Notes: generated by a model not told the origin, from the sequence alone. A stretch of DNA of 64,000 bases from Vulcanimicrobiota bacterium (GCA_963714015.1 OY970223.1:2720001-2784000); one strand, 5' to 3'; counted from the first letter of the stretch, positions 12,745-62,354 are shown. Translations and numbers: made by a program.

Positions 12745-12802
12745 GGCGAACGCTTCCACCTTCACGAGGAAGCCCCTCGCGCGCGCCTGAAAACGTAGAC
12801 GC

Positions 12803-13036
12803 ATGAACGACGCACAGCGCCTTGCCAAATCACTCAACACACTGACCAAGAATCCGCAATTTTCGTACACGAAGGCCCGCGCTGCGGCTCGTCAAGAGCC
12901 GGCCGTAGACTGGGACGCGACCAAGGCGCTCAATGCGGAATTCAATCCCGAGGTCGATGGCTGCGAGTCGTTCGTGATGAGAGACAAGAGTCTGTGCGAA
13001 TGGCTGCCGGGGCAGTACCGGTATGCAGCTCGCTGA
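12803..13036 (+). CDS. Hypothetical protein (77 aa)
   Basis: ORF overlapping the start of the GNAT gene. Confidence 0.6.
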   Translation: MNDAQRLAKSLNTLTKNPQFSYTKARAAARQEPAVDWDATKALNAEFNPEVDGCESFVMRDKSLCEWLPGQYRYAAR

Positions 13037-40462: not shown

Positions 40463-42556
40463 TTAGGGAACGCTCTGTCCCGTCACGGCTTGGATGAGAT
40501 GACCGGCAAAAGGAACGCCGACGCCGGTCACTTCGTCATAGCCGGCGCCCGCCACGTAGCCCGGGACGGGCGTCGCGAACGGGTTGGGCGTGTTGAGCGC
40601 ACCGGGTCCCGGGCTGTCCGGGTTCTGGCCGTAGACCACGTCGTAGAACACGTCGGGATAAGGAAGGGCAGCGGGCGCCAACCCGCCCGTATGCTTCTGC
40701 GCATAGATGCCGTAGAGCAAGGGCGCGGCGTTGCCCAGCCGATAGGGATGGCCGCCCGGCGCCGTGGCGCAGGAGGGCGTCTTCGAGCATGCTTCCAGCA
40801 CCAGCGCCCACATTGCCGCCATCTGCGGTGCAGCGACGCTGGTTCCGCCGATGTCCTCCGGACCGCCCCCGAACTGCGAGTTGACCTCGACCGTCACGCC
40901 GGTGTTCGGGTCGGCCAGCATCGCGGCGTCCGGAACCTCGCGCGTCGCCGCACCCGTCGAGGAATGCTGCGCCGCGATGGGCGGAAATATCGTCGATGGC
41001 CCGCCGCCCGATCCGCTGTGCCCGAGCACGCCCAGATTGTCCGGGGTTGTGGTCCCCCAAGTGGTCATCGGGGCCGTCATGCGGCCGAACTCGTCGAGGG
41101 GCGCAGTGACGCCGCCCACCGACGTGACCGACGGATCGCTTGCGGGATACTCTACGCAAGCACGCTGCGTGTTGACGAAGCATCCGGCGGCACCGTTGTC
41201 GCCGGAAGAGACAAAAACGGCAATGCCTTCCGCAGCCAGGGCGGCGAACTCTTCGGGCCCATAGCCCGCGCCTGTCGCGTCGTAGTACGCGCCGATCTCC
41301 TCGGGTTCACCGGCGCCCCAGCTAATCGAGACGACGTCGGCGGCGTCGTCCGCGATCGCCTGTTGAATCTCAGGATCCGCTTCCACCAAACCGATTTGCG
41401 GCGCACCGTAGTTGCCGTTCGGGTTGGGAGTAGCGGGCGCGGGCGGCGGCGTAGCGCACGGATTCGGAAAGAACGTCGGACAGTCCGAGGCATTGTATGC
41501 AAGATAAAAGAGCACGTTCGAGCCGGGTGCAAGTGTCGCGGTTTGCTGCGTGTCCAGTTGCGCTTCGACGTCCTCCGGATTGCATTTCGGCAGCGAACCG
41601 TTACAGTCCGGAGCCGTCACGGGCGGGGGAGACTGAAATCCCGCGGAGTACGGAAACTCTTGGGGATTCGGTGCCGGAAAATTCGGCGAAGGCGAGGCCG
41701 GCGCAGCCGTGGGGATGCCCGAAATCCCAAGTCCGGCAGCGACGCCGCTGGGCGTGACGGCGGCGATCGAAATCGGCGCCACTCTGGCGTGATAGAGCGC
41801 TCCGAGAGCCGCCGCGTCGGCGTCATGATTACTGACGACGTCGATCGGGCCGGTTCCGATGATACCGATCTTGATTCCGCTCCCGTCCAGAGGCGTTCCA
41901 CCAATCGACGTGCCGTACGCGCCTGTGAAATCGAACGCGGTCTGCACTTGCTCGGGCGCGTAACCGCCGAAAACACCGCTTCCGATGCGCGGAGGCGTGA
42001 CGATGAAGCGGCGGTTCAAATTCAGGCCGACCAAGTTGCCGACGGCGGTAACCGGCACCGCCGCGGGAATGTGCGGGGCACTCATCGGCGCGATGAATTG
42101 CCGGCCATTCTTTTCGTACACGCCGAAACGAGTGCCGAATGCGCGTTCCATCGCGCTCTGCGAACCTGCCACGGCCAGCGTCAGGCGCTGCGGCCAGCCC
42201 GCGGCTTGCAACCCTTGGGACGCGAAGTAGTGCGCGGCTGCATCGTAATCTTGCTGCGATGCGCCGAAACGTGCGGCGATTTGCTGCGGTGTGAGAAATT
42301 GCCGGTACAACGGCGAGGCCGGATCGCTCACCTCACGCGCGTATTGAATCAATGCGGTTGCGCTCTGCTGACGCACGAGCACGTTGACTTGCATGTATCC
42401 CGAATCAGCCGGACCCAGCAGCTGCGCACCGGAGAGGCGCTCTTGGCCCCACTCCAAACCGTTCGCGGGACCGGCGGGAATCGTCGATCCGCCTCCGCAT
42501 CCGCCTAGAATCGCGACGGCAAATACGGCGCCGATCAATTGCGCGTTAAACTTCAT
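40463..42556 (-). CDS. S53 (sedolisin/kumamolisin) lipoprotein peptidase
   Basis: Lipobox LGGC; Pro-kumamolisin domain (YRQFLTPQQIAARFG); EAQLD, SSGDNG, GGTSVAAP. Confidence 0.93.
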   Translation of the reverse strand: MKFNAQLIGAVFAVAILGGCGGGSTIPAGPANGLEWGQERLSGAQLLGPADSGYMQVNVLVRQQSATALIQYAREVSDPASPLYRQFLTPQQIAARFGASQQDYDAAAHYFASQGLQAAGWPQRLTLAVAGSQSAMERAFGTRFGVYEKNGRQFIAPMSAPHIPAAVPVTAVGNLVGLNLNRRFIVTPPRIGSGVFGGYAPEQVQTAFDFTGAYGTSIGGTPLDGSGIKIGIIGTGPIDVVSNHDADAAALGALYHARVAPISIAAVTPSGVAAGLGISGIPTAAPASPSPNFPAPNPQEFPYSAGFQSPPPVTAPDCNGSLPKCNPEDVEAQLDTQQTATLAPGSNVLFYLAYNASDCPTFFPNPCATPPPAPATPNPNGNYGAPQIGLVEADPEIQQAIADDAADVVSISWGAGEPEEIGAYYDATGAGYGPEEFAALAAEGIAVFVSSGDNGAAGCFVNTQRACVEYPASDPSVTSVGGVTAPLDEFGRMTAPMTTWGTTTPDNLGVLGHSGSGGGPSTIFPPIAAQHSSTGAATREVPDAAMLADPNTGVTVEVNSQFGGGPEDIGGTSVAAPQMAAMWALVLEACSKTPSCATAPGGHPYRLGNAAPLLYGIYAQKHTGGLAPAALPYPDVFYDVVYGQNPDSPGPGALNTPNPFATPVPGYVAGAGYDEVTGVGVPFAGHLIQAVTGQSVP

Positions 42557-47645: not shown

Positions 47646-48900
47646 ATGCAAGACCGCACCTTCGGATTCGCAACGCGCGCCATCCACGCCGGAGCCCCGC
47701 CCGATCCGGTCACCGGCGCGCGCGTGACCCCGATTCACCAGACGGCCGCATACGTCTTCGGCTCCACGGAGCAGGCAGCCGAACTCTTTCAGCCTGCGCA
47801 GCTACGGCCATATCTACAGCCGGATCAGCAATCCGACCGTGGCGGCATTCGAGGAGCGCATGGCGAGTCTGGAAGGCGGACTTGGCGCGATCGCCTTCTC
47901 GAGCGGACTTGCAGCGCAGCTCGGCATCGTGCTGACGCTTGCGCAGAACGGCGATCACATCGTCAGCTCGCAGAACGTCTACGGCGGTACGGTTACCCAG
48001 TTCAGCATCACGCTCAAGCGGATGGGCATCGAAACGGCGTTCGCGCCGGTGAACGACTACGAAGCGATACGCGCGGCGATCCGGCCGAACACGAGGATGC
48101 TGTTCGCCGAGACCATCGGCAATCCGTCGGGTACGCTGGCGGACGTCGACAAACTGGCACAGCTCGCGCATGGTGCCGGCATCCCGCTCGTCGTCGACAA
48201 CACCTTTGCATCGCCGGCCCTCTTCCGCCCAATCGAACATGGCGCCGACGTCGTCGTGCATTCCGCAACCAAATTCATCTCCGGACACGGCACAGTGATC
48301 GGCGGCGTGCTGATCGAGTCGGGCAAGTTCGCCTGGGACAGCGGGCGTTTTCCGCTCCTGTCTCAACCGAGCCCGGGGTATCATAATAAAGTCTTCACGG
48401 AGACGTTCGGCGAGTACGCATTTCTGATGCGCGCGCGGGCCGAAGTTCTTCGTGACGTCGGATCGCAGATGTCGCCCATGGATGCTTGGCTTTTGCTCAT
48501 CGGGCTGGAGACGCTTCCGATCCGCATGCGGGCGCACGTCGAGAACGCTGCAACGATCGTGCAATTTCTCAAAGGCCGTCCCGAAGTTGAATGGATCAAT
48601 ATCCCAGCGATGGGCTCGATCTTTACGTTCGGCATTCGCGGCGGCCGGGACGCGGGCCGCAGATTCATCGACGCGCTGGAGCTCTGGAGTCATCTGGCGA
48701 ACGTCGGAGATGCAAAGAGTCTGGTGATTCATCCGGCTTCGACGACGCATTCGCAGCTCGGCGACGACGAGATGCGCAATGCCGGCGTCGCCCCCGAGAT
48801 GATTCGGCTTTCCGTCGGGCTCGAAGACGCGGACGATCTCATTTGGGATCTCCAAAACGCGCTTCAGGCGGCAGCCCTTCCGGTGGGGGGTCGGGCGTGA
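47646..48900 (+). CDS. metY: O-acetylhomoserine sulfhydrylase, frameshift ~47790
   Basis: TPIHQTAAY, YSRISNPT, HSATKFISGHG, LANVGDAKSLVIHPASTTH. Confidence 0.9.
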
Positions 48901-49373
48901 TTCTCGACACGGTTGCGGCACGGCGCGCAATGCTTGCAAAGGCAAAACGCATTGCGATGGTCGGCGCTTCCGCTAATCCGCTCCGCCCGAGCTATACGGT
49001 ATTCAGCTATCTGCGCACACAGAGTCCGTTTGCGGTAGCGCCGATAAATCCGACGATAACCGAAATCGACGGCGTGAAAGCGTATCCGTCTATCGAGGCG
49101 TACGCCGCCGAAAACGGTCCACCGGACATCGTCGACGTCTTTCGCAAGCCGAGCGAAGTAGTCGACGTCGTGAACGATGCCATCCTGGCCGAGGCGCGCG
49201 CTGTTTGGTTTCAATACGGGGTGATCAACCCCGACGCGATCGAACTTGCGCTCAAAGCGGGGCTCGACGTCGTCGTCGACCGCTGTATCAAAGTGGAATG
49301 GGCGCGGCTCAACGGCGGCCTCTCGACCAGCGGGTTGAACAGCGGGCTCATTACCAGCCGCCGCCGCACGTGA
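48897..49373 (+). CDS. CoA-binding protein (YccU-like)
   Basis: IAMVGAS..RPS; DIVDVFR; VWFQYG; DRCIKVE. Confidence 0.9.
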   Translation: MILDTVAARRAMLAKAKRIAMVGASANPLRPSYTVFSYLRTQSPFAVAPINPTITEIDGVKAYPSIEAYAAENGPPDIVDVFRKPSEVVDVVNDAILAEARAVWFQYGVINPDAIELALKAGLDVVVDRCIKVEWARLNGGLSTSGLNSGLITSRRRT

Positions 49374-50446
49374 TCTACTGCGACGAAGCCCAGACGCTCG
49401 ATGCCGAGATCCTCGAGTGCATCTCGGCCCGCAGCGTTCCGGACTTCGACGGCCTTGCGCTGCGCATTTTCGCACACCAACTTCGTTACAACGTGCCCTA
49501 CGCGCGTTATTGCGCCGCAATGGGTGTCACCCCCGATACGCCGCCGGCATCGTGGGAACGGATCCCGCCGGTTCCCGCCGCGGCATTCAAAGAAGCGCAG
49601 CTGTGCACGTTCGATTTTCGCCGCGCCGAGCTCAACTTTCAGACAAGCGGAACGACTACCGGGTCCGCCGGCGTGCATTACATGGAGACGCCGCGGCTGT
49701 ACGATGCGGCGCTGCTCGCCGGCTTCCATGACGCAATGCTGGCGCGCGATCCTCGCCCGCTGCGGTATTTGCTGCTGGTACCCAATCCGGCGGAACGCCC
49801 GCATTCTTCGCTCGGATACATGATGCGCAAAGTCGCGGACACGTACGGCGACGGACGGGAAGCGTGGCTGCTCGAAGGCGACGTCCTGCATTTAGACCGA
49901 TTCGTTAACCACGTTCGAGCGTGTGCCGCGGACGGCACGGCAGTCTGCATTGCGGGCACGGCTTTTGCATTCGTCAACCTGATCGATCTGCTGGCCGAAC
50001 GGCGAATTGGCGCATTGCCCCTGCCGGATGGCTCGCGAATCATGGAGACCGGCGGGTTCAAAGGACGCGCGCGGATAGTCGAACGCGCGAGCCTGTACGC
50101 CGAACTCTCCGCGGCTTTTGCTCTGCCGGAACAGCGAATCGTTGCCGAATACGGAATGACGGAGCTGACGAGTCAATACTATGACGATGCCGCGCGCGTG
50201 AAACGGCCGCCGGCGTGGCTGCGTCCGAGGGTCGTCGGTACCGACGGAAAGACGCTGCCCGAAGGCGTGGTTGGGACACTCGTGCACGTCGATTTGGGCA
50301 ACCGTTCCTCGTGCGTAGCGATTCAAACGGAAGATCTCGGCGTCGGCGTCGACGGCGGCATCGTGCTCATCGGACGCGAACACGGCGCGGAATTGCGCGG
50401 CTGTTCATTGGACGCCGAGCAGCTTCGAACGTTGGCCGCGCACTAG
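49370..50446 (+). CDS. LuxE-like acyl-protein synthetase
   Basis: FQTSGTT, METGGFKGR, EYGMTEL, IQTEDLG, GR..ELRGCS acylation-site Cys. Confidence 0.85.
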   Translation: MIYCDEAQTLDAEILECISARSVPDFDGLALRIFAHQLRYNVPYARYCAAMGVTPDTPPASWERIPPVPAAAFKEAQLCTFDFRRAELNFQTSGTTTGSAGVHYMETPRLYDAALLAGFHDAMLARDPRPLRYLLLVPNPAERPHSSLGYMMRKVADTYGDGREAWLLEGDVLHLDRFVNHVRACAADGTAVCIAGTAFAFVNLIDLLAERRIGALPLPDGSRIMETGGFKGRARIVERASLYAELSAAFALPEQRIVAEYGMTELTSQYYDDAARVKRPPAWLRPRVVGTDGKTLPEGVVGTLVHVDLGNRSSCVAIQTEDLGVGVDGGIVLIGREHGAELRGCSLDAEQLRTLAAH

Positions 50447-51669
50447 TGACTGCGCTCAGCCGCGTTCCTGCCGCAAAGATCGTGCGCGCCGTCGCCTGCG
50501 CGGCCGAACGCTGGAGCGATGCTGATTTTCCGCCGCGCGTGCGAGCAACGGATCGAATCGCGGCGCGCACGGGCTATTCCGTGCCTATGGTCGAGTACGC
50601 ACTCGATCGCCTCTTCTTTCCGATTGACGAAGGGGAAGTAGCAGGCGTCATCGCAGCGGAACTAGGCAGCGTCGAAGCTTTGGATGGTTTTTGCAGGCGG
50701 TCCGGCAAACCGGACGCCTGGGCTCGCCCCGCCGGCAACGTCTGTATCATATCCAGCCGCACGACGATCGGCGTTGCACTTTATCCGGCCGTCTTTGCGC
50801 TCTGCGCGAAGTGCGACGTAACGGTCAAAGATCGCGAAGATGCGCTCGTCACGTCATTCTTTGAGACGCTCGGCGAAGAACTCGACGAGTTACGAATTTC
50901 CGCTCGCGCTTCAGCATGGAACTCGGTTGAAACGCAAGCGCCGGATCTCGACCGCTTCGATCTCGTCGTCGCGTTCGGCAGTGACGAAGCGCTGGCGCAC
51001 ATCGCGGCGAGCGTAGGCTACCCGCGCCGCTTCATCGGATACGGCTCCCGGATGAGCGCAGGCTACGTCGCGCGCGAGACGCTAGCGGCCGCGGACGTGC
51101 TTGCGCTCTGCGAGGGCGCTGCCCGCGATCTGTTGCTGTACGAGACCGAAGGCTGTCTTTCGCTGCATGCGCTGTTCGTCGAGCGCGGCGGCGACATCGA
51201 ACCATCGGAATTTGCGCGAAAGCTGGCGGACGCGTCGGAGCGCGCGTCGATCGAGTTTCCGCCGGGGCGGATCGAGCCGTATCAATCCGCGCAATTCGTC
51301 CAGCGCCGCAACCTTGCGGCGTTTCGCGCCGCCGCGGGCCGAGGCGCAGTTTTTGCAGACGAAGTCTCGCGGATGGCCGTGGTACTCGATCCGTCGCATG
51401 ACGAGCCGCCGCCGTTTTTGCCGCGTATGCTCGGCGTGCTGCCGGTTGACGCACCGGCGCAGGCACTTGCATACCTTCGGCAACATCATCTGCCGCTCGA
51501 GGCATTCGCGCTTTCATCGCCGCGGCCGGACGTAGTGCAAATGGCCGTCGATGCGGGTGCAGTGCGTCTTGCGCGCTTCGGCGAATTGCAGGCACCGTCG
51601 CTTGGGAACGACCACGGCGGCCGCCCGCGCATCGCGGAATTCGTGCAATGGATCGACAAGACGATTTGA
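50446..51669 (+). CDS. LuxC-like acyl-CoA/acyl-protein reductase
   Basis: VAFGSDEA, GYGSRMS, YETEGCLS catalytic Cys, HGGRP C-terminus. Confidence 0.8.
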   Translation: MTALSRVPAAKIVRAVACAAERWSDADFPPRVRATDRIAARTGYSVPMVEYALDRLFFPIDEGEVAGVIAAELGSVEALDGFCRRSGKPDAWARPAGNVCIISSRTTIGVALYPAVFALCAKCDVTVKDREDALVTSFFETLGEELDELRISARASAWNSVETQAPDLDRFDLVVAFGSDEALAHIAASVGYPRRFIGYGSRMSAGYVARETLAAADVLALCEGAARDLLLYETEGCLSLHALFVERGGDIEPSEFARKLADASERASIEFPPGRIEPYQSAQFVQRRNLAAFRAAAGRGAVFADEVSRMAVVLDPSHDEPPPFLPRMLGVLPVDAPAQALAYLRQHHLPLEAFALSSPRPDVVQMAVDAGAVRLARFGELQAPSLGNDHGGRPRIAEFVQWIDKTI

Positions 51670-52938
51670 ACGGCGAGGAACTGGAAGAAGTTCGCACCGC
51701 AATACCCGGACCGCGTACGCGGGAACTCGCCGGTAAATTGCGCCGAGTGGAGTCGCGTAACGTCACCTTCGTAGACGAACGCTTTCCGGTTTTTTGGGAG
51801 TCAAGTTGCGGGGCCAACGTCACGGACGTCGACGGCAACCGGTACATCGATCTCACTGCGGGGTTTGGCGTCGCCGGGACGGGTCACAGCAATCCGCGTG
51901 TCGCGGCCGCAATCGCGGAGCAAGCCGGACGCATGATGCACGCCATGGGCGACGTGCACCCCGCCGAAGCAAAGGTCTCCCTGCTCGAAAAACTCGCGGC
52001 GATAACGCCCGGCGGCTTGAGCAAAACGTTTCTGGCATCCACGGGCGCCGAGGCGGTCGAAGCGGCGATGAAGACGGCCATAATCGCTACCGGCAAGTCG
52101 CGCTTCGTTGCTTTTCGCGGCGCTTACCACGGGCTGTCGTTCGGTGCGCTGGAGATTTGCGGAATCGAAAAATTCCGCGATCCCTTTCGCACCATGCTGC
52201 CGGACCGCGCGCACTTCTTGGACTTTCCGCAAAGTCCGGACGCACTCGATGACGTTCGGCAAGTGATGGACGCCGGCGGTGACGTCGCCGCAGTCTTTAT
52301 CGAGCCGGTACAAGCGCGCGGGGGAAACTACGTTGCCCCGGACGGATATCTGCGGGGGCTGCGCGAGCTCTGCACGACGCGTGGTGTGTTGCTCATTTGC
52401 GATGAGATCTACACGGGATTCGGACGAACGGGGCAAATGTTCGCGTGCGATTGGGAAAACGTCGCTCCGGATATCCTGTGCATCGGGAAAGCGATGGCGA
52501 ACGGTTTCCCAATCTCCGCGGCCGTCGCAGCTCCCAATATCATGGACGCTTGGCCGGAATCGCCCGGAGAGGCGCTTCACACTTCGACGTATTTGGGAAA
52601 CCCCATGGCCTGCGCCGCCGCGCTCGCGAACATCGGCGAGATCGAGCGGTTGAAGCTGCCTCAGCGCGCTCGCGAGCTGGGCTCGCTTCTTGAGGAACGT
52701 CTTACGCTGCTCTGCGCAAATCACCGCCTGCCTCAGCCGCGCGGGCGCGGTTTGCTGTGGGGATTCGAACTCGAGGATGGTGCCCGGGCTTCAAAGCTCG
52801 TAAAGGACGCGCTGAGAAACGGCATCATCGTTTTGCAAGCCGGGCCGCTGGGCAACGTCGTTTCGATCGCTCCGCCGCTCGTCATCTCGCGGCGCCAGCT
52901 CTTTGCATGCCGTCGACGTTCTCGAGGAGTGCTTATGA
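51648..52938 (+). CDS. Class III PLP aminotransferase (GabT/ArgD/LysJ-like); indel ~52905 fuses it to the next gene
   Basis: DVDGNRYID, GAEAVEAAMK, YHG, DEIYTGFGRTG, PDILCIGK. Confidence 0.9.
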
Positions 52939-53960
52939 CGTACAAGGTCGGTCTGGTTGGTTCCGGGTTCGGAGTACGCGCGCACTTGCCCGCGTATAAC
53001 GCTCATCCGCAATTCGAAGTCGTCGCCATCGCTTCGCCGCATAGCGCCGCCGGGATCGCCAAACAACGCGGAATCGCGTCTTTCACATCGTGCGCGGAAC
53101 TGCTGAGCGAGGCCGACGTCGATATCGTCGACGTCTCGGCGCCGCCGTTCACGCACCACCGCGACGTTCTCGACGCACTCGCTGCCGGTAAGCACGTCAT
53201 TTGCGAGAAGCCGTTTGCGCTCAACGTCGCTCAAGCGCAAGAGATGGCCGCAGCCGCGAGCGCTTCGGGCAAAGCCACGGCCGTCATGCACGAGTTCCGC
53301 TGGGTTCCGCAGCGAATGGCAATCAAGGAATTGATCGTCAACGAGCATCTTACGCCGCTGCGTGAGATAGAGATCGTTCAATTGAGCACGAATCTTCGCG
53401 CCGAAGATACCTCCCGACCGCGAGGATGGTGGTTCGAGCGTGAACGAGGCGGAGGTATGGCCGGCGCGCTGCTCTCACACGCGATCGACTGCGCCACCTG
53501 GTGGGCCGGACGGCCGCCCGTTCGCAGCACGGGGTATCTGCGCACCGCAAATCCGGAGCGCCGCGACAGTGAGGGTCAATTCACCAGCACGTCGGACGAC
53601 GGGGCATTCGCGCTGGTCGACTACGGCGACGGCCTCGTCGCGCGGCTTTGCGTCGATGGAACGGTTGCGGTCGAATCAGCGACGTACGCAGCGCACGCCG
53701 AAAATCGCACGGCGGTCGCGAGCGGACTCAGCGCAATCGATCTGCGCCTGTTCAGCGTCGATACCGACGAGACGGCGGAGTTGGAGTGCAAGCCCTCGCC
53801 CTACCAAAAGTTTGCGGCCGTCGATCCGCTGGTTCCCCTCGTCATGCAGCTGCTGGACGAATTCCTCAAGCAAATCGAAACCGGCGCCGGCGACGTACCG
53901 ACCTTCGCCGAAGCCGTCGAAACGCAAAAGGTTCTGGAATCGATCGGCTACGCGACGTAG
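52935..53960 (+). CDS. Gfo/Idh/MocA oxidoreductase
   Basis: KVGLVGSGFG, GKHVICEKP, SHAID; own GAGGAG RBS. Confidence 0.9.
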   Translation: MTYKVGLVGSGFGVRAHLPAYNAHPQFEVVAIASPHSAAGIAKQRGIASFTSCAELLSEADVDIVDVSAPPFTHHRDVLDALAAGKHVICEKPFALNVAQAQEMAAAASASGKATAVMHEFRWVPQRMAIKELIVNEHLTPLREIEIVQLSTNLRAEDTSRPRGWWFERERGGGMAGALLSHAIDCATWWAGRPPVRSTGYLRTANPERRDSEGQFTSTSDDGAFALVDYGDGLVARLCVDGTVAVESATYAAHAENRTAVASGLSAIDLRLFSVDTDETAELECKPSPYQKFAAVDPLVPLVMQLLDEFLKQIETGAGDVPTFAEAVETQKVLESIGYAT

Positions 53961-53987: not shown

Positions 53988-55661
53988 TTACGGATAAACG
54001 GGATCGTGAAGGGCCGCAGCCATTGCGCGATAGACGTCGAGCTCGCCGCAGCCTTGGTGATCGGCGTCGGGTGCTGAAGTCAGCAATGGACGAGCGCTCG
54101 CGCACAGCAGATTGCTGATTGTCGCCGGATCGTCGGGAACGCCTGCGCTCAAAAGCAGCGCTGCGGCTCCGGCGACGTGCGGTGCGGCCTGCGATGTCCC
54201 AATCAGCGACGCGCGGCAATCGATGAGGTTTCCATTGGGATCGGGCGTGCAGTTCGCGCCGCCCGATGCTGTAGAGGAGTAGATGTTTTCGACCCAATGG
54301 AGGTTGTCGACGTCACCGCAGTTCGCGCCTTCGAGTTCCATCACGCACGAATCTCCTCCGGGCGCGATCAAACCCCAAGAATGCGAGTTCGCATTGTAAT
54401 TTGAGTAAGAGGCAACCTTCAAAAAGACGTTCGCCGGATTGGCGTCGTCGATGGCTGAGGAGCCCACGGCAATGACACCCGGATCTGCCGCCGGATATGA
54501 GAGGGCCGGATTTCCGAGGCCCGTGCTGGAGTTCCCGTTGCCCGCCGCTGCGACGACGACGACCTTTTGCGCAATCGCATTCTCGACCGCAGTTTCTTCA
54601 TCGCCGGCCTGTTCGTCGGCGCCCAAGCTCATGTTGATGACTTTCGCCCCGTGGCTCACCGCGTCGGTTACTGCGACGGCAATGTCTGCACTCGAGGCGG
54701 AACATTCGCCGTTCTGGCACGGCGGGTTGGGAAACACTTTGAAGATCATCAACGGTGCGTTGTATGCAACCCCCGCAAAACCGATGCCGTTGTTGGCAGT
54801 CGCTGCCGCAATGCCGGTAACGTTCGTTCCATGCCCATCATCGTCGTGCATCGCGGCCGTTCCGGGCGTCACCACGTCGTTCAACACTTGCTCGGCGTAG
54901 ATGATGCGGCTTGCCGGTTGCAAATCGGGATGCGTCAAGTCCGCGCCGGTGTCGATAATGGCGATGGGGAAAGCAGCGCTGCCGCCGGCGGCTCCGGGAT
55001 GTGCGACGCCGGTGCCGTTGGACGGATCGGCATATCCCCATGCGTCCGGCGCACAGATCACGTGCAGATCCCACTGCCCTTCCGAGCTGGGATTCTCGTA
55101 AAGCGGCGGCTCGTTCGAAGGCGCGAAACCGAGCTCGTACGGATCTTGCGTAAAGGCCGGACTGGAAGATTCCAGGTGCCGGTAGACGGATTGTCCGGCC
55201 GAGAGCACGTCGGGATCCCGTTCGAACTGTGCAATGGCCGCTGTTTCGGAACCCGCCGCAACGCGAACGAATCGCATGACCTCATCCAGAGCCCGAAAAT
55301 CCAACGCCCCCGCCGGCAGCGAGCCTTTCATACGCGTCAAGTAACCGCGCCGCTCGTACGTGACGAAAATGGAACCGGGAACGAATCCGCGATCGTGAGG
55401 CGCTGCCAAACGGCGCGTAATTAGCCGCGCGCCGAATGCGGCTGAGCGGTAGCGCGACTGGGCGGTCGGATTGCTTTCGCCGTCGCAGTTTATTGCCGAG
55501 GACGCAATTGCCGGTGCCACCGCGATCGCCGGCTGCGGCGTTCCGGCCGGAACGCTTATGGATGCAGGGACGTTTGAGCTGCCTCCGCCGCCGCATCCTG
55601 CCGCTGCAAGCAGAGCGATCAATGCCGCCCCGCGACCTGCACCGGTTCCGCGCCGTTTCAC
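53988..55661 (-). CDS. S8 subtilase lipoprotein (copy 3)
   Basis: Lipobox AAGC; IIDTG, GHGT, AAAGN, GTSQAAPHV. Confidence 0.93.
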   Translation of the reverse strand: MKRRGTGAGRGAALIALLAAAGCGGGGSSNVPASISVPAGTPQPAIAVAPAIASSAINCDGESNPTAQSRYRSAAFGARLITRRLAAPHDRGFVPGSIFVTYERRGYLTRMKGSLPAGALDFRALDEVMRFVRVAAGSETAAIAQFERDPDVLSAGQSVYRHLESSSPAFTQDPYELGFAPSNEPPLYENPSSEGQWDLHVICAPDAWGYADPSNGTGVAHPGAAGGSAAFPIAIIDTGADLTHPDLQPASRIIYAEQVLNDVVTPGTAAMHDDDGHGTNVTGIAAATANNGIGFAGVAYNAPLMIFKVFPNPPCQNGECSASSADIAVAVTDAVSHGAKVINMSLGADEQAGDEETAVENAIAQKVVVVAAAGNGNSSTGLGNPALSYPAADPGVIAVGSSAIDDANPANVFLKVASYSNYNANSHSWGLIAPGGDSCVMELEGANCGDVDNLHWVENIYSSTASGGANCTPDPNGNLIDCRASLIGTSQAAPHVAGAAALLLSAGVPDDPATISNLLCASARPLLTSAPDADHQGCGELDVYRAMAAALHDPVYP

Positions 55662-55700
55662 GTTTTCGTACGTCTCCCAAAGCAAATGGCAACGTGAAAC

Positions 55701-55789
55701 TGACCGGCAGCTCGCGCCGCCGGATCAGCGGCTCCGCCGGCTGAGTAGCATGCGAAAGGGCGGAGGCCGTTACGGCTCTTTCCCGCCCT
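55701..55789 (-). promoter_or_regulatory. Structured leader with two long hairpins
   Basis: AGGGCGG..CCGCCCT-TTC and CCGGCGG-GCCGCTG-ATC-CGGCGGC-CTGCCGG stems. Confidence 0.45.
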
Positions 55790-55832
55790 GAAGCTCTAGA
55801 AGGTTAGGACTGACGTACCTATGTGGCGTGAC

Positions 55833-57497
55833 TTACGGGTAGCTGGTATCTCCCAGCGTTTCCGCCATCGCGTGATAGACGTTGAGCTCGCCGCAGCCTT
55901 GATGTGACGCGTTCGTGTCCGATTGCTGAATGACCGTCGCCGAATTGCAGATAAGGCTCTGCATTGCGCTGGGGCTCTGTTGTGCGCCGGCGCTGAGCAG
56001 CAAAGCCACCGCGCCGGAAACATGCGGCGTTGCCTGCGAGGTCCCGATGATCAAGATGCGACAGTCGACTGTCGAGTTCTGGCTCTGAAAGTCGGGCGTG
56101 CACGAACCGGGCTGAGAGGCCGTGCTGGAGTAAATATTTTCGATCCAGTGCAGATCGTCGGTATCGGCGCAGTTCGTGCTGGACGGCGTGTTCGGACAGG
56201 CGTCGCCGCCGGGCGCAACTACGCCCCAGCTATTCGAATTCGGTTCGTAGTTCGAATACGAGGCGACCTTGAGATTTGGGCTGGACGCATTCGTGTCGTC
56301 GATCGCTGAAGCGCCGACGGCGATGACGCCCGGATCCGCTGCGGGGTAGTCCAGAGTCGGCTGGGCAATGCCGGTATTCGAATCGCCATTACCCGCCGCA
56401 GCCACTACCACGACGTTTGCCGCGATCGCATTGGCGACCGCACTTTCCTCATCGCCTGCAGCCGAGCTGCCGCCCAAGCTGAGGTTAATGACGTTGGCCC
56501 CGTTCGTCACCGCGTCGTTTATTGCGGTCGCGATATCGGATGTTGAAGCGGTACATCCGCCGCTGCCGCATTGCGACGGATCCTGGAAGACTTTGAAAAT
56601 CATGAGCGACGCATTGTAAGCAACCCCGGCAAAGCCTAGTCCATTGTTGCCCGTTGCGGCGGCGATTCCGGCGACGTCCGTTCCGTGACCGTCGTCGTCG
56701 TGCATCGACGCAATACCCGTCGTCACCTGACCGTTCACGACTTGCTCTGCAAACGCAATGCGGCTTGAAGCCGGTTGAAGCTCGGGATGGGTGAGGTCGG
56801 CGCCGGTATCGACAATCGCGATCTTTATGCCGGCACTTCCTCCGGCAGCCGCCGGCTGCGCGGTGCCCGTACTATTCGACGCGCTGGAATAGCCCCACGC
56901 GTCGGGTGCGCATACCACGTGGAGATCCCACTGGCCCGGCGTGCTCGCGCCTTCGTACAGCGGCGGCACGTTGTCGGGAGAAAATCCGACGGCGTACGGA
57001 TCGTTGGTATAGACGGGCGTTGCCGAGTCCAGATGACGGTACGCCGAACGGCCCACCGACAACACACCCGGAGACGTCCGCAGCGATGCCATCGCGGAAG
57101 CTTCCGTTCCGGGACGCACGTGAAGAATTTGAACCACTTTGCCGATGTGCGCAAAGTCCAGTTCCTTGACGACTTGTCCGCCGTAGCGTGCAGCGCTCCG
57201 CGTCAAGACCGCGCGCTTGGCTTGATAGAGCGCCCGATCGTAGGTGACCGTGATTGCGCCGGGTATGTAGCCGGATTCGAGCGCCGAAATTCGCGCGCGC
57301 CCGCGGCGCGCCGTCCTCATCTCGAAATTCGCCGCCAAACGCGCCTGCGGGGCGGTTGGATTTGACTGGTTGCAGAGAATGCCCACGGAGCCCGGAGGAG
57401 GGGTCGGCGTAACGTTGGTGCTTCCGCCGCAGGCCGAAAGAGCCGCAGTTGCTCCCATCATCGCAAGCACTTGAAACCCGAGTCTATGTCCGATCAT
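55833..57497 (-). CDS. S8 subtilase lipoprotein (copy 2)
   Basis: Lipobox LSAC; IVDTG, GHGT, GTSQATPHV. Confidence 0.93.
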   Translation of the reverse strand: MIGHRLGFQVLAMMGATAALSACGGSTNVTPTPPPGSVGILCNQSNPTAPQARLAANFEMRTARRGRARISALESGYIPGAITVTYDRALYQAKRAVLTRSAARYGGQVVKELDFAHIGKVVQILHVRPGTEASAMASLRTSPGVLSVGRSAYRHLDSATPVYTNDPYAVGFSPDNVPPLYEGASTPGQWDLHVVCAPDAWGYSSASNSTGTAQPAAAGGSAGIKIAIVDTGADLTHPELQPASSRIAFAEQVVNGQVTTGIASMHDDDGHGTDVAGIAAATGNNGLGFAGVAYNASLMIFKVFQDPSQCGSGGCTASTSDIATAINDAVTNGANVINLSLGGSSAAGDEESAVANAIAANVVVVAAAGNGDSNTGIAQPTLDYPAADPGVIAVGASAIDDTNASSPNLKVASYSNYEPNSNSWGVVAPGGDACPNTPSSTNCADTDDLHWIENIYSSTASQPGSCTPDFQSQNSTVDCRILIIGTSQATPHVSGAVALLLSAGAQQSPSAMQSLICNSATVIQQSDTNASHQGCGELNVYHAMAETLGDTSYP

Positions 57498-57510
57498 CCG
57501 GGATTCTCCC

Positions 57511-57548
57511 AAATAAGAAAGTGGCCGACAGGCATCGGCCACCTTCTT
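57511..57548 (-). terminator. Intrinsic terminator directly upstream of the RBS of S8 copy 2
   Basis: AAGAAGGTGGCCGA-loop-TCGGCCACTTTCTT-ATTT. Confidence 0.75.
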
Positions 57549-57599
57549 GTTCGTCACGCGGGCTACTGACCCGCTAGGCACGGTTAAGAACGCGTGAGA

Positions 57600-59187
57600 T
57601 TACTGAGTCATTGCGTAGTTGACCGCGTTTGCGGCGTCGACTCTGCCGCAACCGGCCTTCGGATCGGGACTCGAGACGCTGGGTATCTTGTCTGCGGTCG
57701 AGCAGAGTCCGGTTACAACCTGAGCTGGGGTGAGGTTTGGATTGATGCTGAGCATGAGCGAAACGACGCCCGCGACATGCGGAGTTGATTGCGACGTTCC
57801 TTCGTAGAGCGCCTCGCAGTCGGTTTGTAGTGCCTGGTCTTCGCCGCAGTACGGATCGTTTGCAATCTCGCTTGACGTAATGTTCGCAATCCAGTGCAGA
57901 TTGTCGGAATCGCCGTTTCCGGAGATGTTGCCGCCGGGGGCGACGAGGTACGTTCCGCCGTCACTCCGCGGCGTCGTCGTGTAGTCGGAATAGGCTGACG
58001 CGAAGACTTCCGTAGGCGGATTAGTAGCGTCGTTCAAACCAGACGCTCCGACCGCAACCACTCCGGGATATGCGGCAGGACAGCCCAAGTTACCCTGACC
58101 GTCGTTGCCCGCAGCAGCAACGACCACGACGCCGGCCTTGATCGCGTTTTCGACCGCCGTTTCTTCAATTTGGTCTTGGCATTGCGAGAGCGGACCGGTT
58201 GCACCGAGACTGAGATTGATGACTTTTGCACTGTTCGCCACGGCGTCGTTGATCGCGCTTACCTCGTCGACGTCGGTGGACTGGCACTGTGCCGGCGGAT
58301 TCGAAACTTCGCAGCCGCTACTCGGATCGGTCGGAAATATGCGATAGGCCAGGAGCGGCGCATCCCAAGCGACGCCGGCAAACCCGAAGCCGTTGCCCGT
58401 ATCAGCATCAGCGATACCGGCAACGTTCGTACCGTGACCGTCGGTGTCGGTAACGTACGGGCCGGTCGTCTGCGGATTGTTGCTCGGATACGTGACGAAG
58501 CACTCGGTGCGGACAATCTTTCCGCCGCTCAAGTCCTGCAGCGTCACGTCGACGCCGGTATCGATCACGGCGATCGGCGCGCCGATGATGGGTGCGCTCG
58601 GGAAGAGGTTCCATGCACCCTGCACGTTCATCGCATGCAAGTCCCATTGACCGAGCAGGCTGCTCGTTTCCCAATAGGGACTGCTCGTACCGGGCAGGCC
58701 GGCATAGAACGGGTCATTGGCTATGTTGTTGGACAACCGGTGCCGGTACTGCGCTTGCTCGACGGATTTCACACCCGCGGTTTGGCGAAGATGCGCGATC
58801 GCTGCTGATTCTCGCGAAGGATCCACCGCGAAGGTGCGCGAGCGCAACCCGAGACCGTTGAACTGAACTTCCGGCCGCGTCTGCAGCGCATACGAAGCCG
58901 CGGCGCGTTCTATCGAATCGCTCGACGCGTCGCTTGCGTACGTTACGGTAATCAAGCCCGGCACATAGCGGGCGGTCTTAGCAACCAGCGTCGTGGCGCC
59001 ATGGCGCGAAATACCGGCCGCGCGCCGGTTCAAGCTGGAAGGAGAACTGCCCGTCGTCGGACAGGCGTCCGGATTGGGAGTCGGCGTCGCAGTGGGCGTC
59101 GGAGTGGGGCTGCCGCCTCCGCCGCACGCCGACAGCACCAGCGAACCGAGGAGCAATACGAGACAAAAATCGAGAGGGACGCTTCAC
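57600..59187 (-). CDS. S8 subtilase lipoprotein (copy 1); probable indel ~59165
   Basis: Lipobox LSAC; VIDTG, GHGT, GTSQSTPHV; AAGGA RBS before an out-of-frame GTG at 59187. Confidence 0.9.
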
Positions 59188-60482: not shown

Positions 60483-61346
60483 CTAAAAGTCGACGGGCCG
60501 CAAGTAAAATTCGTTGATCGCGGTGTTGGTGAGCATCGCCGTCGTCGGGAGATGACGCTTCCAGTGCGTGCCGTCCAAACGACGGCGCACGAGTTCCACG
60601 TCGGCACGTACGAACCCGCGCTCGACGAGCTGCGCGTCGGAATAGCCTTCGAGCATTCGCGCTAAGATTGCGTCAGCTTTTGCGTACGTGATCCCCAAAT
60701 CGCCCTCGTCGGTTTGTCCCGCTTCGAGATCGGCACTGGGCGCCTTGTCTATGAGCGGCGCAGGCACGCCCAGGTGTCTTGCCAGCCCCCACACCTGCGT
60801 CTTGTACAAATCGCCTATGGGATTGACCGGGGGCGTGTCGTCGGCGTGCCAAGTGAAGTATCCCAGCAGCCGCTCCGTCTTATTCCCGGTTCCAATCGGC
60901 AGCGCGTTATATTTTGCCGATTGATCGAATAGCACCACCATGCGAACTCGCGCCATGACGTTGCCGCGCCGCCGCGCATTTGCATCCGGTTCGTATTGCA
61001 AATAGCCCTCAACCGCGGCCGTAATCTCGATCGTCTCCTCCTGAATACCCAGCGCCTCGACCACCAGTCGCGCGTCTTCCAAACTGGCCGCGCTCGAGGT
61101 TGCGTACGGCATCCGGATCGCATGCACGTTTTTCGGACCGAGCGCCCGGGCGCACAAAAAAGCCGTCACAGCCGAATCGACGCCTCCCGAGACTCCGATC
61201 ACGGCGCGCCGAATATTCCGGCGCCCGATCAGTTCGTCTTGCAGAAACGCAATCAGCCACTCGGCAGTCACCGTTGGGTTGACGTGCGGCGGCCGGGTAA
61301 AGCTGTCGGCCGGTTCATGGATGACCGGCAGCACACGTCTCTCCAA
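60483..61346 (-). CDS. nadE: NAD+ synthetase (single domain)
   Basis: GVSGGVDS, GNVMARVRM, GTGNKTE, GDLYKTQV, KAPSADL. Confidence 0.95.
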   Translation of the reverse strand: MERRVLPVIHEPADSFTRPPHVNPTVTAEWLIAFLQDELIGRRNIRRAVIGVSGGVDSAVTAFLCARALGPKNVHAIRMPYATSSAASLEDARLVVEALGIQEETIEITAAVEGYLQYEPDANARRRGNVMARVRMVVLFDQSAKYNALPIGTGNKTERLLGYFTWHADDTPPVNPIGDLYKTQVWGLARHLGVPAPLIDKAPSADLEAGQTDEGDLGITYAKADAILARMLEGYSDAQLVERGFVRADVELVRRRLDGTHWKRHLPTTAMLTNTAINEFYLRPVDF

Positions 61347-61414
61347 TCACCTCGGGCCGTTTCTCAATCGAACGATGCGGCGATTTCAGCATTTTTATTT
61401 CGCGGGGTCTACTG

Positions 61415-61861
61415 TTAGTGACAATTGGCCGAAAGCAATCGGCGAATAGAACCATCTTTTTTCTGATCCGAAAGATAAAGCTTATCCAGGGAATCGGCGG
61501 TTACATCGAGAGATTCCGCCTTTGCGACTTCCTCTTCTGCATAACGAAACATCACGCACGCCTGCGGACGCTCCCGAACCTTCAGGTATGCATCGCCGGA
61601 GAATGTCGCAAACTTCGCGGCATCGAGCAAATCTTCGACTCTCGAGTCCATGAAGTGATGCGGCGAATCGGCGCATTCCGCGACCCTCGAAGACACTATA
61701 CGATACATATCGGCGGTATCGGACAAAGGAGGCGGCGTCCGGGATGGATAGTATCCATCAATTTCAATATGTTTCAGCGTCGACATTATCAAGGTACGGT
61801 TGCAGCGCGGGGACGCACTGGGAGTTGACACCAGGACCGAGAAAACTGCAGCAGCGAACAC
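61415..61861 (-). CDS. Hypothetical secreted Cys-containing protein
   Basis: Signal-like N-terminus, visibly more AT-rich, AGGA upstream. Confidence 0.6.
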   Translation of the reverse strand: MFAAAVFSVLVSTPSASPRCNRTLIMSTLKHIEIDGYYPSRTPPPLSDTADMYRIVSSRVAECADSPHHFMDSRVEDLLDAAKFATFSGDAYLKVRERPQACVMFRYAEEEVAKAESLDVTADSLDKLYLSDQKKDGSIRRLLSANCH

Positions 61862-61881
61862 GGAAATATTCCTAGCGCAGG

Positions 61882-62302
61882 CTAACGGCTGAGCATTTCT
61901 TGCGCCTTCGCGGCGCTAAGACCAATGCTCTCGAGAACAGCAGCATCCATTGCACCCCCTCCGGCGTAGAGAACGGTATAACTGTAACAGACTTTGACAC
62001 TGCGACGTGTTGCCATAAAGCGCTACGGCGGTCCCGCTGGCGCCTCCGTTAATTGTATAACCCACGAGAATCGCCGAGGTAGACACGAGGCAGTGATGTC
62101 CGGCTGGGCAGAGGCTAATCTCGGAATAGCTATCCCCGTACGAAATCGTGTCCTTGGCGTTCACCGTCATAAATTGGCGGATCGCGCTTTGAAGCGCGGC
62201 AGGGGGAGGCCCGGTAACAGCTATCGCAGGGGTGAGTGGCGAAAAGACGAGCATGATGCAGGCGAGAATACAAATGGTGATTCGGGAGATGGAAAGTTTC
62301 AT
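61882..62302 (-). CDS. Hypothetical secreted protein, probable frameshift ~61990
   Basis: Signal peptide, GGAAGG RBS; alternative frame gives YAGGGAMDAAVLESIGLSAAKAQEMLSR*. Confidence 0.6.
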
Positions 62303-62354
62303 CGTTCCGTTCCTTCCAATGGCAGCATCTTAGATGCGATACGGCGACAAATCA

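What the first reader, a model, noticed from the sequence alone, without database searches (positions are those of the whole stretch)
47646..53960. Luciferase-free LuxE-LuxC module coupled to an omega-aminotransferase and a Gfo/Idh/MocA reductase: candidate carboxylate-to-amine pathway
Seen: six genes with overlapping stop/start codons (metY, CoA-binding, LuxE-like, LuxC-like, class III aminotransferase, Gfo/Idh/MocA). LuxE keeps TSGTT and the C-terminal RGCS Cys; LuxC keeps a Cys in YETEGCLS. No luxA/B/D in the window. Known: LuxE adenylates a carboxylate and forms a Cys thioester, LuxC reduces it to an aldehyde with NADPH, and class III aminotransferases aminate terminal aldehydes. Inference: the genes form a carrier-free acid -> aldehyde -> primary amine route, making either a fatty amine/amino-lipid or a diamino acid. 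I know of no characterised pathway with this composition.
Basis: partly seen in the sequence, partly recalled or inferred. Interest (0 to 1): 0.8.

Follow-up and report, generated by a model that had tools for sequence, protein, structure and literature searches.

The report
Likely nitrile-free route to preQ1
Three adjacent enzymes in this soil bacterium probably turn the acid 7-carboxy-7-deazaguanine into the amine preQ1, replacing the two standard enzymes (QueC and QueF) for making the tRNA base queuosine, which this genome and many other bacteria lack.

Summary
The genes are real: metY, a CoA-binding protein, LuxE-like, LuxC-like, a class III aminotransferase (AT) and a Gfo/Idh/MocA protein lie head to tail. 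As assembled, metY carries a frameshift, and an extra T fuses AT to Gfo.

The acid-to-aldehyde-to-amine logic holds. LuxE-LuxC-AT is syntenic in 20 of 20 Eremiobacterota loci and recurs in other phyla. The proposed substrates (fatty acid, diamino acid) are not supported.

The evidence points to queuosine:
- This genome has QueD, QueE, TGT, QueA and QueG, but no QueF and no real QueC. The gap is exactly carboxylate to aminomethyl.
- In Verrucomicrobiota the pair forms LuxE-LuxC-QueD operons (7 loci). The AT ortholog follows QueE in 5 of 5 of those genomes tested.
- In 151 Myxococcota genomes, 116 have the LuxE-like gene and 33 have QueC, with no overlap. QueF overlaps in 2.
- In 151 Verrucomicrobiota genomes, none of the 6 LuxE-like carriers has a strong QueF hit, against 124 of the other 145.

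I read the trio as a QueC/QueF-independent route from CDG through 7-formyl-7-deazaguanine to preQ1 (confidence about 0.75, no biochemistry). metY and the CoA-binding gene look like passengers, and Gfo is unassigned.

My literature searches found nothing on this. Earlier AI notes of this scan proposed the same on other genomes.

The parts
49370..50446 (+). LuxE-like adenylating acyl-enzyme synthetase (358 aa). Proposed role: activates 7-carboxy-7-deazaguanine (CDG) with ATP and carries it as a thioester on Cys345.
   Evidence: PF04443 43 bits, above the 24.9 cut-off. The family profile hits PDB 7xc6_E LuxE at 1.2e-30. S93-G94-T95, K231, R336 and C345 are invariant in 12 of 12 sequences. The R336-C345 spacing of 9 matches R355/C364 of Photobacterium LuxE (passages of PMC9157457). 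It does not reach the LuxE equivalog NF052244: 43.3 bits against a 550 cut-off.
50446..51669 (+). LuxC-like acyl-thioester reductase (407 aa). Proposed role: takes the acyl group on Cys237 and reduces it with NAD(P)H to 7-formyl-7-deazaguanine.
   Evidence: PF05893 125.2 bits. The profile of 12 sequences hits 7xc6_A at 1.7e-39, with the invariant G236-C237 aligned to the LuxC catalytic Cys. The protein ends where the alignment reaches residue 447 of the 477-residue chain. It therefore lacks the C-terminal segment that the paper says covers the hydrophobic cleft.
51648..52938 (+). Class III (GabT/putrescine-AT-like) aminotransferase. Proposed role: transaminates the aldehyde to preQ1. As assembled it runs on in frame into Gfo; the stop at 52936-52938 is reached only after removing one base near 52902-52908.
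   Evidence: PF00202 336.8 bits. The best NCBIfam hits are all below their cut-offs. The nearest structures are putrescine AT and GabT. It is syntenic in 20 of 20 relatives. Orthologs of 46-53% identity lie directly after QueE in 5 of 5 Verrucomicrobiota genomes.
52935..53960 (+). Gfo/Idh/MocA NAD(P) oxidoreductase (341 aa). Its role is unassigned and it is probably not part of the core route.
   Evidence: PF01408 92.4 bits plus C-terminal domains. It follows AT in 13 of 13 same-family loci at 46-71% identity. It is only a weak family hit (24-28% identity) in 3 of 3 loci of the second family, and is absent in 4 of 4 of the third. It was not found in the 70 loci of other phyla. The Gfo beside QueE in L049 is only 22% identical.
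47646..48900 (+). metY (O-acetylhomoserine sulfhydrylase), broken by a +1 frameshift in the CTCTTT run at 47784-47789. Co-transcribed passenger, not part of the route.
   Evidence: PF01053 339.7 bits for the 3' part. The N-terminus lies in another frame. It is absent before LuxE in 2 of 13 same-family loci and in all 7 loci of the other two families.
48897..49373 (+). CoA_binding_2 protein (158 aa). It travels with metY; its role is unknown.
   Evidence: PF13380 115.7 bits. It is always found with metY in the relatives.

Best explanation
LuxE-like, LuxC-like and the class III aminotransferase form a three-step route from 7-carboxy-7-deazaguanine (CDG, the product of QueE) to preQ1 (7-aminomethyl-7-deazaguanine). 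This route replaces QueC (CDG to the nitrile preQ0) and QueF (nitrile to amine).

**Inferred steps.**
1. LuxE-like adenylates the CDG carboxylate with ATP. It then moves the acyl group to its C-terminal Cys345.
2. The acyl group passes to Cys237 of LuxC-like, which reduces it with NAD(P)H to 7-formyl-7-deazaguanine.
3. The aminotransferase converts the aldehyde to preQ1, using an amino donor such as glutamate.
4. TGT, QueA and QueG, all present in this genome, then finish queuosine on tRNA.

**Shown here:** the genes, their catalytic residues, their synteny, their clustering with queD and queE in other phyla, and their mutual exclusion with queC and queF.

**Not shown:** any enzyme activity, the substrate, the cofactor or the amino donor.

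metY and the CoA-binding gene are operon passengers. Gfo is unassigned.
For: **1. A pathway hole of exactly this chemistry in the window's own genome.**
- TGT: 495 bits.
- QueD: 106.6 bits.
- A QueE homolog lies directly after QueD.
- QueA: 429 bits.
- QueG: 296 bits against a cut-off of 200.
- QueF: no match.
- QueC: only two hits of about 25 bits. One of these is NAD synthase.

**2. Operon links to que genes in Verrucomicrobiota.**
- LuxE-LuxC-QueD occurs in 7 loci with differing flanks.
- The QueD of L104 passes the TIGR03367 cut-off.
- The AT ortholog lies directly after QueE in 5 of 5 of those genomes tested.
- L049 carries Gfo-QueE-AT-LuxE-LuxC, with QueE scoring 303 bits on TIGR04349 against a cut-off of 300.

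**3. Mutual exclusion with QueC and QueF.**
- Myxococcota, 151 genomes:
  - LuxE-like in 116.
  - QueC in 33, overlap 0.
  - QueF in 31, overlap 2. Both overlaps have weak QueF hits (60-64 bits) and weak LuxE hits.
  - Only 2 genomes have neither QueC nor LuxE-like.
  - 107 of the 116 LuxE-like carriers have QueD.
- Verrucomicrobiota, 151 genomes:
  - QueF is over its cut-off in 125.
  - None of the 6 LuxE-like carriers has a strong QueF hit.
- 50 LuxE-bearing genomes of other phyla:
  - QueF gives only partial hits of 21-28 bits.
  - Real QueC is present in 3.
- Eremiobacterota, 41 genomes:
  - QueF in 0 and real QueC in 2.
  - QueD in 41.
  - LuxC-like in 37. The LuxE-like gene was found in the other 4.

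**4. Catalytic residues and synteny.** The catalytic residues of LuxE and LuxC are conserved. The trio is syntenic in 20 of 20 relatives.

**5. Placement in the LuxE tree.** The window's clade sits in the same 53-row group as the que-linked clades. Support is SH-aLRT 83, from a quick tree with a midpoint root.
Against: - No que gene lies next to the trio in this window or in the 20 Eremiobacterota loci. The assignment rests on orthology with sequences that are only 35-44% (LuxE), 23-30% (LuxC) and 44-53% (AT) identical.
- No preQ1 riboswitch or any other Rfam family was found in window 40000-64000 or in 10 loci of other phyla.
- Three LuxE-bearing genomes also have a real QueC, including the genome of L049.
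- Nine LuxE-positive Myxococcota genomes lack QueD, so part of the family may do something else.
- The genome is 89.6% complete by marker count, and many of the compared genomes are MAGs.
- Related genomes are not independent counts.
- I did not search for preQ1 transporters (YhhQ, QueT, QrtT), so salvage is not excluded.
Confidence: 0.75

Rival explanations
1. The module reduces a fatty acid to a fatty aldehyde, which is then aminated to a fatty amine or amino-lipid. This would resemble the LuxC-like TabE plus the omega-transaminase TabA of tambjamine BE-18591 biosynthesis.
For: - The proteins belong to the LuxE and LuxC families.
- There is a precedent: a LuxC-like reductase plus a transaminase makes dodecylamine (passages of bioRxiv 10.1101/2025.08.11.669332).
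Against: - No acyl carrier protein, thioesterase, LuxD or lipid genes travel with the trio.
- The LuxC-like protein lacks the C-terminal segment that covers the hydrophobic cleft of LuxC.
- A lipid role would not explain the exclusion with QueC and QueF or the operons with QueD and QueE.
- The protein is far below the LuxE equivalog cut-off: 43 bits against 550.
Confidence: 0.04
2. The module makes an amino-acid semialdehyde from glutamate, aspartate or 2-aminoadipate. The aminotransferase then gives ornithine, 2,4-diaminobutyrate or lysine.
For: - The aminotransferase resembles the GabT, ArgD and LysJ families.
- The neighbours are amino-acid genes: metY, and leuC/leuD or homoaconitase-like genes.
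Against: - The genome has argB, argC, argD, asd, aspartate kinase and ornithine aminotransferase elsewhere.
- The metY and leuCD neighbourhood is not kept outside the order.
- This reading does not explain the que links.
Confidence: 0.04
3. The trio acts on another carboxylate of the same pathway, for example 6-carboxy-tetrahydropterin, the product of QueD. Alternatively it makes a 7-deazaguanine other than preQ1. Under this reading the carriers obtain preQ1 by salvage.
For: - LuxE-LuxC sits next to QueD rather than QueE in 7 loci.
- I did not search for transporters.
Against: - The AT sits directly after QueE in the same genomes.
- Carriers keep QueE, TGT, QueA and QueG.
- The exclusion is with QueC and QueF, the enzymes that consume CDG.
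Confidence: 0.12

Closest known systems
LuxC-LuxE fatty acid reductase of luminous bacteria (Photobacterium phosphoreum, PDB 7XC6; PMC9157457, passages read)
   Same: The two proteins belong to the same two families and lie in adjacent genes. The LuxE Lys, the Arg-x8-Cys C-terminal motif and the LuxC catalytic Cys are all kept. This implies the same ATP-dependent route: acyl-AMP, then thioester, then NADPH reduction.
   Different: - There is no luxA, luxB or luxD.
- The protein does not reach the LuxE equivalog model.
- LuxC-like has no single-sequence PDB match.
- LuxC-like lacks the C-terminal cleft-covering segment.
- The proposed substrate is a polar heterocyclic acid, not myristate.
- An aminotransferase follows instead of luciferase.
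Canonical preQ1 synthesis by QueC (PF06508) and QueF (PF14489)
   Same: Both have the same proposed start (CDG) and end (preQ1). Both occupy the same place between QueE and TGT.
   Different: - The enzymes are not homologous.
- The proposed intermediate is an aldehyde, not a nitrile.
- From the known stoichiometries (recalled, not tested), the canonical route uses 2 ATP, ammonia and 2 NADPH. The proposed route would use 1 ATP, 1 NAD(P)H and one amino donor.
TabE (LuxC-like acyl-thioester reductase) plus TabA (omega-transaminase) of tambjamine BE-18591 (bioRxiv 10.1101/2025.08.11.669332, passages read)
   Same: A LuxC-family reductase makes an aldehyde, and a class III transaminase converts it to a primary amine.
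   Different: TabE takes an ACP or CoA thioester, without a LuxE partner and without ATP. Its substrate is a C12 fatty acyl group and it belongs to secondary metabolism.

Membership tests
LuxE acyl-protein synthetase (PF04443) | Match to the family model above its cut-off | tested here: met
   43 bits against a 24.9 cut-off. The profile of 12 relatives hits 7xc6_E at 1.2e-30.
LuxE acyl-protein synthetase (PF04443) | Adenylation Lys, and an Arg followed 9 residues later by the acylated C-terminal Cys (K238, R355 and C364 in P. phosphoreum) | tested here: met
   K231, R336 and C345 are invariant in 12 of 12 sequences, with the same spacing of 9 (passages of PMC9157457). The correspondence is by motif and spacing, not by a printed alignment to the LuxE chain.
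LuxE of the lux operon (NCBIfam equivalog NF052244) | Score at or above the equivalog cut-off, and a lux operon context | tested here: not met
   43.3 bits against a 550 cut-off. No luciferase or LuxD family was found among 53 window ORFs scanned.
LuxC acyl-CoA/acyl-protein reductase (PF05893) | Family match and the catalytic Cys | tested here: met
   125.2 bits against a 21 cut-off. The profile hits 7xc6_A at 1.7e-39, and the invariant C237 aligns with the Cys of ...DQQACFS.... The paper names Cys296 as catalytic.
LuxC acyl-CoA/acyl-protein reductase (PF05893) | C-terminal segment (P460-P488) that closes the L-shaped hydrophobic cleft for the fatty chain | tested here: not met
   The window protein ends where the alignment reaches residue 447 of the 477-residue chain. 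The role of the segment is taken from passages of PMC9157457.
Class III aminotransferase (PF00202) | Family match, and membership of a named subfamily | tested here: inconclusive
   The family match is 336.8 bits. All 25 best NCBIfam subfamilies score below their cut-offs; the best is PRK08117 at 302 bits against 574. It is therefore a class III enzyme of no named specificity.
Queuosine de novo pathway (functional membership) | Operon linkage with que genes | tested here: met
   In other phyla only: LuxE-LuxC-QueD in 7 loci, QueE-AT in 5 of 5 genomes, and QueE beside the trio in L049. This linkage is not seen in this window.
Queuosine de novo pathway (functional membership) | Phyletic complementarity with the enzymes it would replace, and co-occurrence with the rest of the pathway | tested here: met
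   (counts are given in the report).
Queuosine de novo pathway (functional membership) | Conversion of CDG to preQ1 | not testable with these tools
   Needs enzyme assays or genetic complementation.
Gfo/Idh/MocA oxidoreductase (PF01408) | N-terminal Rossmann domain and C-terminal domain | tested here: met
   PF01408 92.4 bits, PF22725 45.7 bits and PF02894 36.3 bits. No NCBIfam equivalog was reached.

The most novel reading that the evidence does not exclude
A QueC/QueF-independent route to preQ1, through an aldehyde rather than a nitrile, is built from a LuxE/LuxC-type carboxylate reductase and an omega-aminotransferase. In the genomes I sampled it is the main de novo route in two groups: Myxococcota (116 of 151) and this class of Eremiobacterota (41 of 41). 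It also occurs in Verrucomicrobiota, Gemmatimonadota, Acidobacteriota and other phyla. If so, many genomes now scored as preQ1 salvagers, or as having an incomplete queuosine pathway, make queuosine de novo.
Probability: 0.7. Interest if true: 0.85.

Novelty: new variant of a known kind. Interest (0 to 1): 0.8.

Why it matters
Queuosine is a widespread tRNA wobble modification. In current descriptions its de novo pathway always passes through the nitrile preQ0, made by QueC and reduced by QueF. The comparative study I read in passages (PMC5372724) sorts genomes into de novo and salvage types. In those passages it does not describe the pattern seen here: QueD, QueE, TGT, QueA and QueG present, QueC and QueF absent.

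If the trio fills that gap:
- Pathway predictions for whole phyla change.
- LuxE/LuxC-type enzymes gain a first role in primary metabolism outside bioluminescence.
- A carrier-free enzyme set that turns a heteroaromatic acid into a primary amine becomes available for biocatalysis.

The claim can be tested directly with three genes and an E. coli queC or queF deletion.

Tried and rejected
**Rejected hypotheses.**
- Replacement of ArgB/ArgC/ArgD, Asd or HemL was considered first. It was dropped because all of these are present in the genome.
- The weak QueC hit inside the window (about 61020-61208) was followed up. It is NAD synthase NadE.
- The Gfo beside QueE in L049 looked like a link to the window's Gfo. 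The two are only 22% identical.

**Searches that found nothing.**
- Rfam gave no match in window 40000-64000 at E up to 1, and none in 10 loci of other phyla at gathering score.
- Sequencing runs: no RNA holder was listed, so nothing can be said on expression.
- The contigs laid do not cover the metY frameshift site.
- A single-sequence PDB search with the LuxC-like protein found nothing. Only the profile did.

**Literature.** Searches found no paper linking LuxE or LuxC to queuosine or 7-deazaguanines in the held library. Papers in subscription journals are not covered.

**Call slips and limits.**
It was resent with 50.
- One search failed on a placeholder string of mine.
- The careful tree did not finish, so the quick tree is reported.

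Full report
**What is in the window**

The window is bases 2720001-2784000 of a single-contig genome of 3.56 Mb. It is 89.6% complete by marker genes. The closest named proteins come from Candidatus Baltobacteraceae, phylum Eremiobacterota.

Six genes lie head to tail on the + strand:

| Gene | Coordinates |
|---|---|
| metY | 47646-48900 |
| CoA_binding_2 protein | 48897-49373 |
| LuxE-like | 49370-50446 |
| LuxC-like | 50446-51669 |
| Class III aminotransferase (AT) | from 51648 |
| Gfo/Idh/MocA oxidoreductase | 52935-53960 |

leuC and leuD lie divergently upstream. Three paralogous S8 proteases follow on the other strand.

- **metY changes frame** at the CTCTTT run 47784-47789.
- **AT and Gfo form one 770-aa ORF as assembled.** The ATGA overlap at 52935-52938 appears only if one base near 52902-52908 is removed.
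  - In 13 of 13 relatives AT and Gfo are separate genes.
  - One otherwise identical 189-base contig of a soil-metagenome run lacks one letter at 52902 (depth 2.7; possibly the source sample).
- Several other genes of this assembly look split. I therefore read both frameshifts as homopolymer errors of the assembly, not biology. This is not proven for metY.

**Synteny**

- *Relatives.* I fetched 20 loci from relatives in three families of the class. None came from the four unpublished genomes.
  - LuxE-LuxC-AT is present in that order in 20 of 20.
  - metY and the CoA-binding gene precede LuxE in 11 of 13 same-family loci. They do so in 0 of 7 loci from the other two families.
  - Gfo follows AT in 13 of 13 same-family loci. 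In the second family it is only a weak family hit (3 of 3), and in the third it is absent (0 of 4).
- *Public species genomes.* A profile of 12 LuxE-like sequences (A1) found relatives in at least 597 stretches, and 80 loci were kept.
  - Of the 70 loci that are not of the Eremiobacterota type, 24 have the AT next to LuxE, mostly in the order AT-LuxE-LuxC. These come from Myxococcota, records labelled Spirochaetales, Verrucomicrobiota and Omnitrophota.
  - None of the 70 has the window's Gfo, metY or CoA-binding gene.
- The conserved core is therefore the trio.

**Which acid? Amino-acid routes first**

I first tested core amino-acid routes. The genome has all of the following elsewhere, so the trio does not replace them:
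- argB, argC and argD
- asd and aspartate kinase
- ornithine aminotransferase
- gabT, two putrescine-type aminotransferases, bioA and hemL

**Which acid? The queuosine lead**

The lead came from neighbours in other phyla.
- In Verrucomicrobiae locus L049, the trio sits beside a small radical-SAM gene that is QueE (TIGR04349, 303.1 bits against a cut-off of 300).
- A local tblastn then showed the following:
  - Seven Verrucomicrobiota loci carry LuxE-LuxC-QueD as a tight operon.
  - Their flanks differ (for example MetRS and squalene-hopene cyclase, citrate synthase, sulfatases).
  - The QueD of L104 passes the TIGR03367 cut-off.
- In five of those genomes, the single strong ortholog of the window AT (46-53% identity) lies directly after QueE in 5 of 5.
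  - Its best five NCBIfam hits are all QueE models, at 245-261 bits on TIGR04349, below the 300 cut-off.
- Each of the three enzymes is therefore operon-linked to the two genes that make CDG.

**The window's own genome has the matching hole**

| Gene | Result |
|---|---|
| TGT | 495 bits |
| QueD, with a QueE homolog directly after it | 106.6 bits |
| QueA | 429 bits |
| QueG | 296 bits (cut-off 200) |
| QueF | no match |
| QueC | two hits of about 25 bits; one is NadE |

The missing steps, CDG to preQ0 to preQ1, amount to carboxylate to aminomethyl. That is what a LuxE/LuxC reductase plus a transaminase would do.

**Phyletic pattern**

| Sample | LuxE-like | QueC | QueF | Overlap with LuxE-like |
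|---|---|---|---|---|
| 41 relatives, window genome included | LuxC-like in 37; LuxE-like found in the other 4 | real in 2 (G012, G040) | 0 | QueD in 41 of 41 |
| 50 LuxE-bearing genomes of other phyla | all, by selection | real in 3 | partial hits of 21-28 bits only; 2 barely over cut-off | n/a |
| Verrucomicrobiota, 151 | 6 | not searched | over cut-off in 125 | none of the 6 has a strong QueF; one has a 27.8-bit partial hit |
| Myxococcota, 151 | 116 | 33 | 31 | QueC 0; QueF 2 (G310, G370) |

- *Relatives.* These counts include four unpublished genomes (G010, G021, G023, G036). Without them the figures are 33 of 37, 0 of 37, 2 of 37 and 37 of 37.
- *Myxococcota.*
  - Both QueF overlaps have weak QueF hits (60-64 bits) and weak LuxE hits.
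  - Only G243 and G374 have neither QueC nor LuxE-like.
  - QueD is present in 140 genomes, and in 107 of the 116 LuxE-like carriers.
  - The nine LuxE-like carriers without QueD mostly have the weakest LuxE scores, so they may carry a paralog.
- Related genomes are not independent and many are MAGs, so I give counts, not probabilities. The pattern is the one expected for non-orthologous displacement of QueC plus QueF.

**Mechanism by homology**

- The LuxE-like profile matches LuxE of PDB 7XC6 at 1.2e-30.
- S93-G94-T95, K231, R336 and C345 are invariant in 12 of 12 sequences. The R-to-C spacing of 9 equals that of R355 and C364, which the cryo-EM paper ties to adenylation and thioester formation (PMC9157457, passages).
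- The LuxC-like profile matches the LuxC chain at 1.7e-39, with the invariant Cys237 on the catalytic Cys.
- The window protein stops about 30 residues before the end of that chain. It lacks the segment that the paper says closes the hydrophobic cleft for the C14 chain. That fits a non-lipid substrate.
- The AT is a GabT/putrescine-AT-like class III enzyme of no named subfamily.
- In a quick LuxE tree, the window's clade lies in one 53-row group with the QueD-linked, QueE-linked and AT-linked clades. Support is SH-aLRT 83, which is not strong, and the root is for drawing only.

**What is known**

The canonical route is QueC plus QueF. A LuxC-like reductase plus a transaminase making a fatty amine is described for tambjamine BE-18591 (bioRxiv 10.1101/2025.08.11.669332, passages).

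Six searches of the held library found no paper that links LuxE or LuxC to queuosine or 7-deazaguanines. Subscription journals are not covered.

After I had reached this reading, I looked up the scan's earlier notes. Six AI notes on other genomes propose the same route: WOR-3, Krumholzibacteria, a luxE-luxC-queD operon, and three AT-LuxE-LuxC cassettes. They agree with this reading but are not independent evidence.

- the complete pathway inventory of one carrier genome
- the QueE-AT pairing in the QueD-linked genomes
- the cross-tabulations in three phyla

**Open points**

- No que gene is adjacent to the trio in Eremiobacterota. In the third family QueD lies 14-23 kb from it.
- No riboswitch was found.
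- Gfo, the CoA-binding protein and the co-transcription with metY are unexplained.
- Salvage transporters were not searched.
- No activity has been measured.

**Verdict**

The best explanation is a nitrile-free CDG-to-preQ1 route (confidence about 0.75).

Noticed in passing
window 47784-47789 and 52902-52908: Both frameshifts sit in the same context, CTCTT plus one extra T. One soil-metagenome contig lacks one letter at 52902. This looks like a systematic homopolymer error of the assembly.
   Followed up: partly
window 10780-12870, 5387-6241 and 60483-63455; G000 1569-2484 and 1710717-1711677: More genes look split or truncated in this assembly:
- A prolyl oligopeptidase is in two ORFs.
- EPSP synthase matches only model positions 147-416.
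- The CN_hydrolase and NadE parts are separated by two small ORFs.
- A class III aminotransferase and a second QueA copy are each in two pieces.

This may explain the 89.6% completeness of a single-contig genome.
   Followed up: no
G000:C1:2999518-3002070 (outside the window): argH and argC lie in one open frame of 851 aa. This is either a fusion or another frame error.
   Followed up: no
window 53988-59156 (- strand) and 40463-42556 (-): Three tandem paralogous S8 subtilases with lipoprotein-like N-termini lie directly after the operon. A kumamolisin-type protease lies upstream.
   Followed up: no
L046, L055, L063 (and L060 in part): In Myxococcota-type loci, the trio is followed by a B12-binding radical SAM protein with DUF4070, and then by suf genes. 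It is preceded on the other strand by HPPK (folK) and a cation-efflux gene. HPPK is a pterin enzyme, and the link, if any, is unexplained.
   Followed up: partly
Genomes G278, G296, G301, G310, G335, G345, G355, G380, G387: Nine Myxococcota genomes have a LuxE-like hit but no QueD. Eight of them have the weakest LuxE scores, E between 1e-42 and 1e-59. This may be a paralogous subfamily with another substrate. The Bacteroidota sequences also branch apart in the tree.
   Followed up: no
G045 (genome of L049), G047, G086: Three LuxE-bearing genomes also have a real QueC but no strong QueF. preQ0 may be made there for another use.
   Followed up: no
Third-family relatives (G030-G040): QueD lies a constant 14-23 kb from the LuxE-LuxC-AT locus on the same contig in all ten genomes where both were placed. 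This is a loose but conserved linkage.
   Followed up: no
L039, L041: Two Eremiobacterota loci have the LuxE-like gene without LuxC or AT within the stretch held. metY and the CoA-binding gene are on the opposite strand. This is a rearranged arrangement or an assembly artefact.
   Followed up: no
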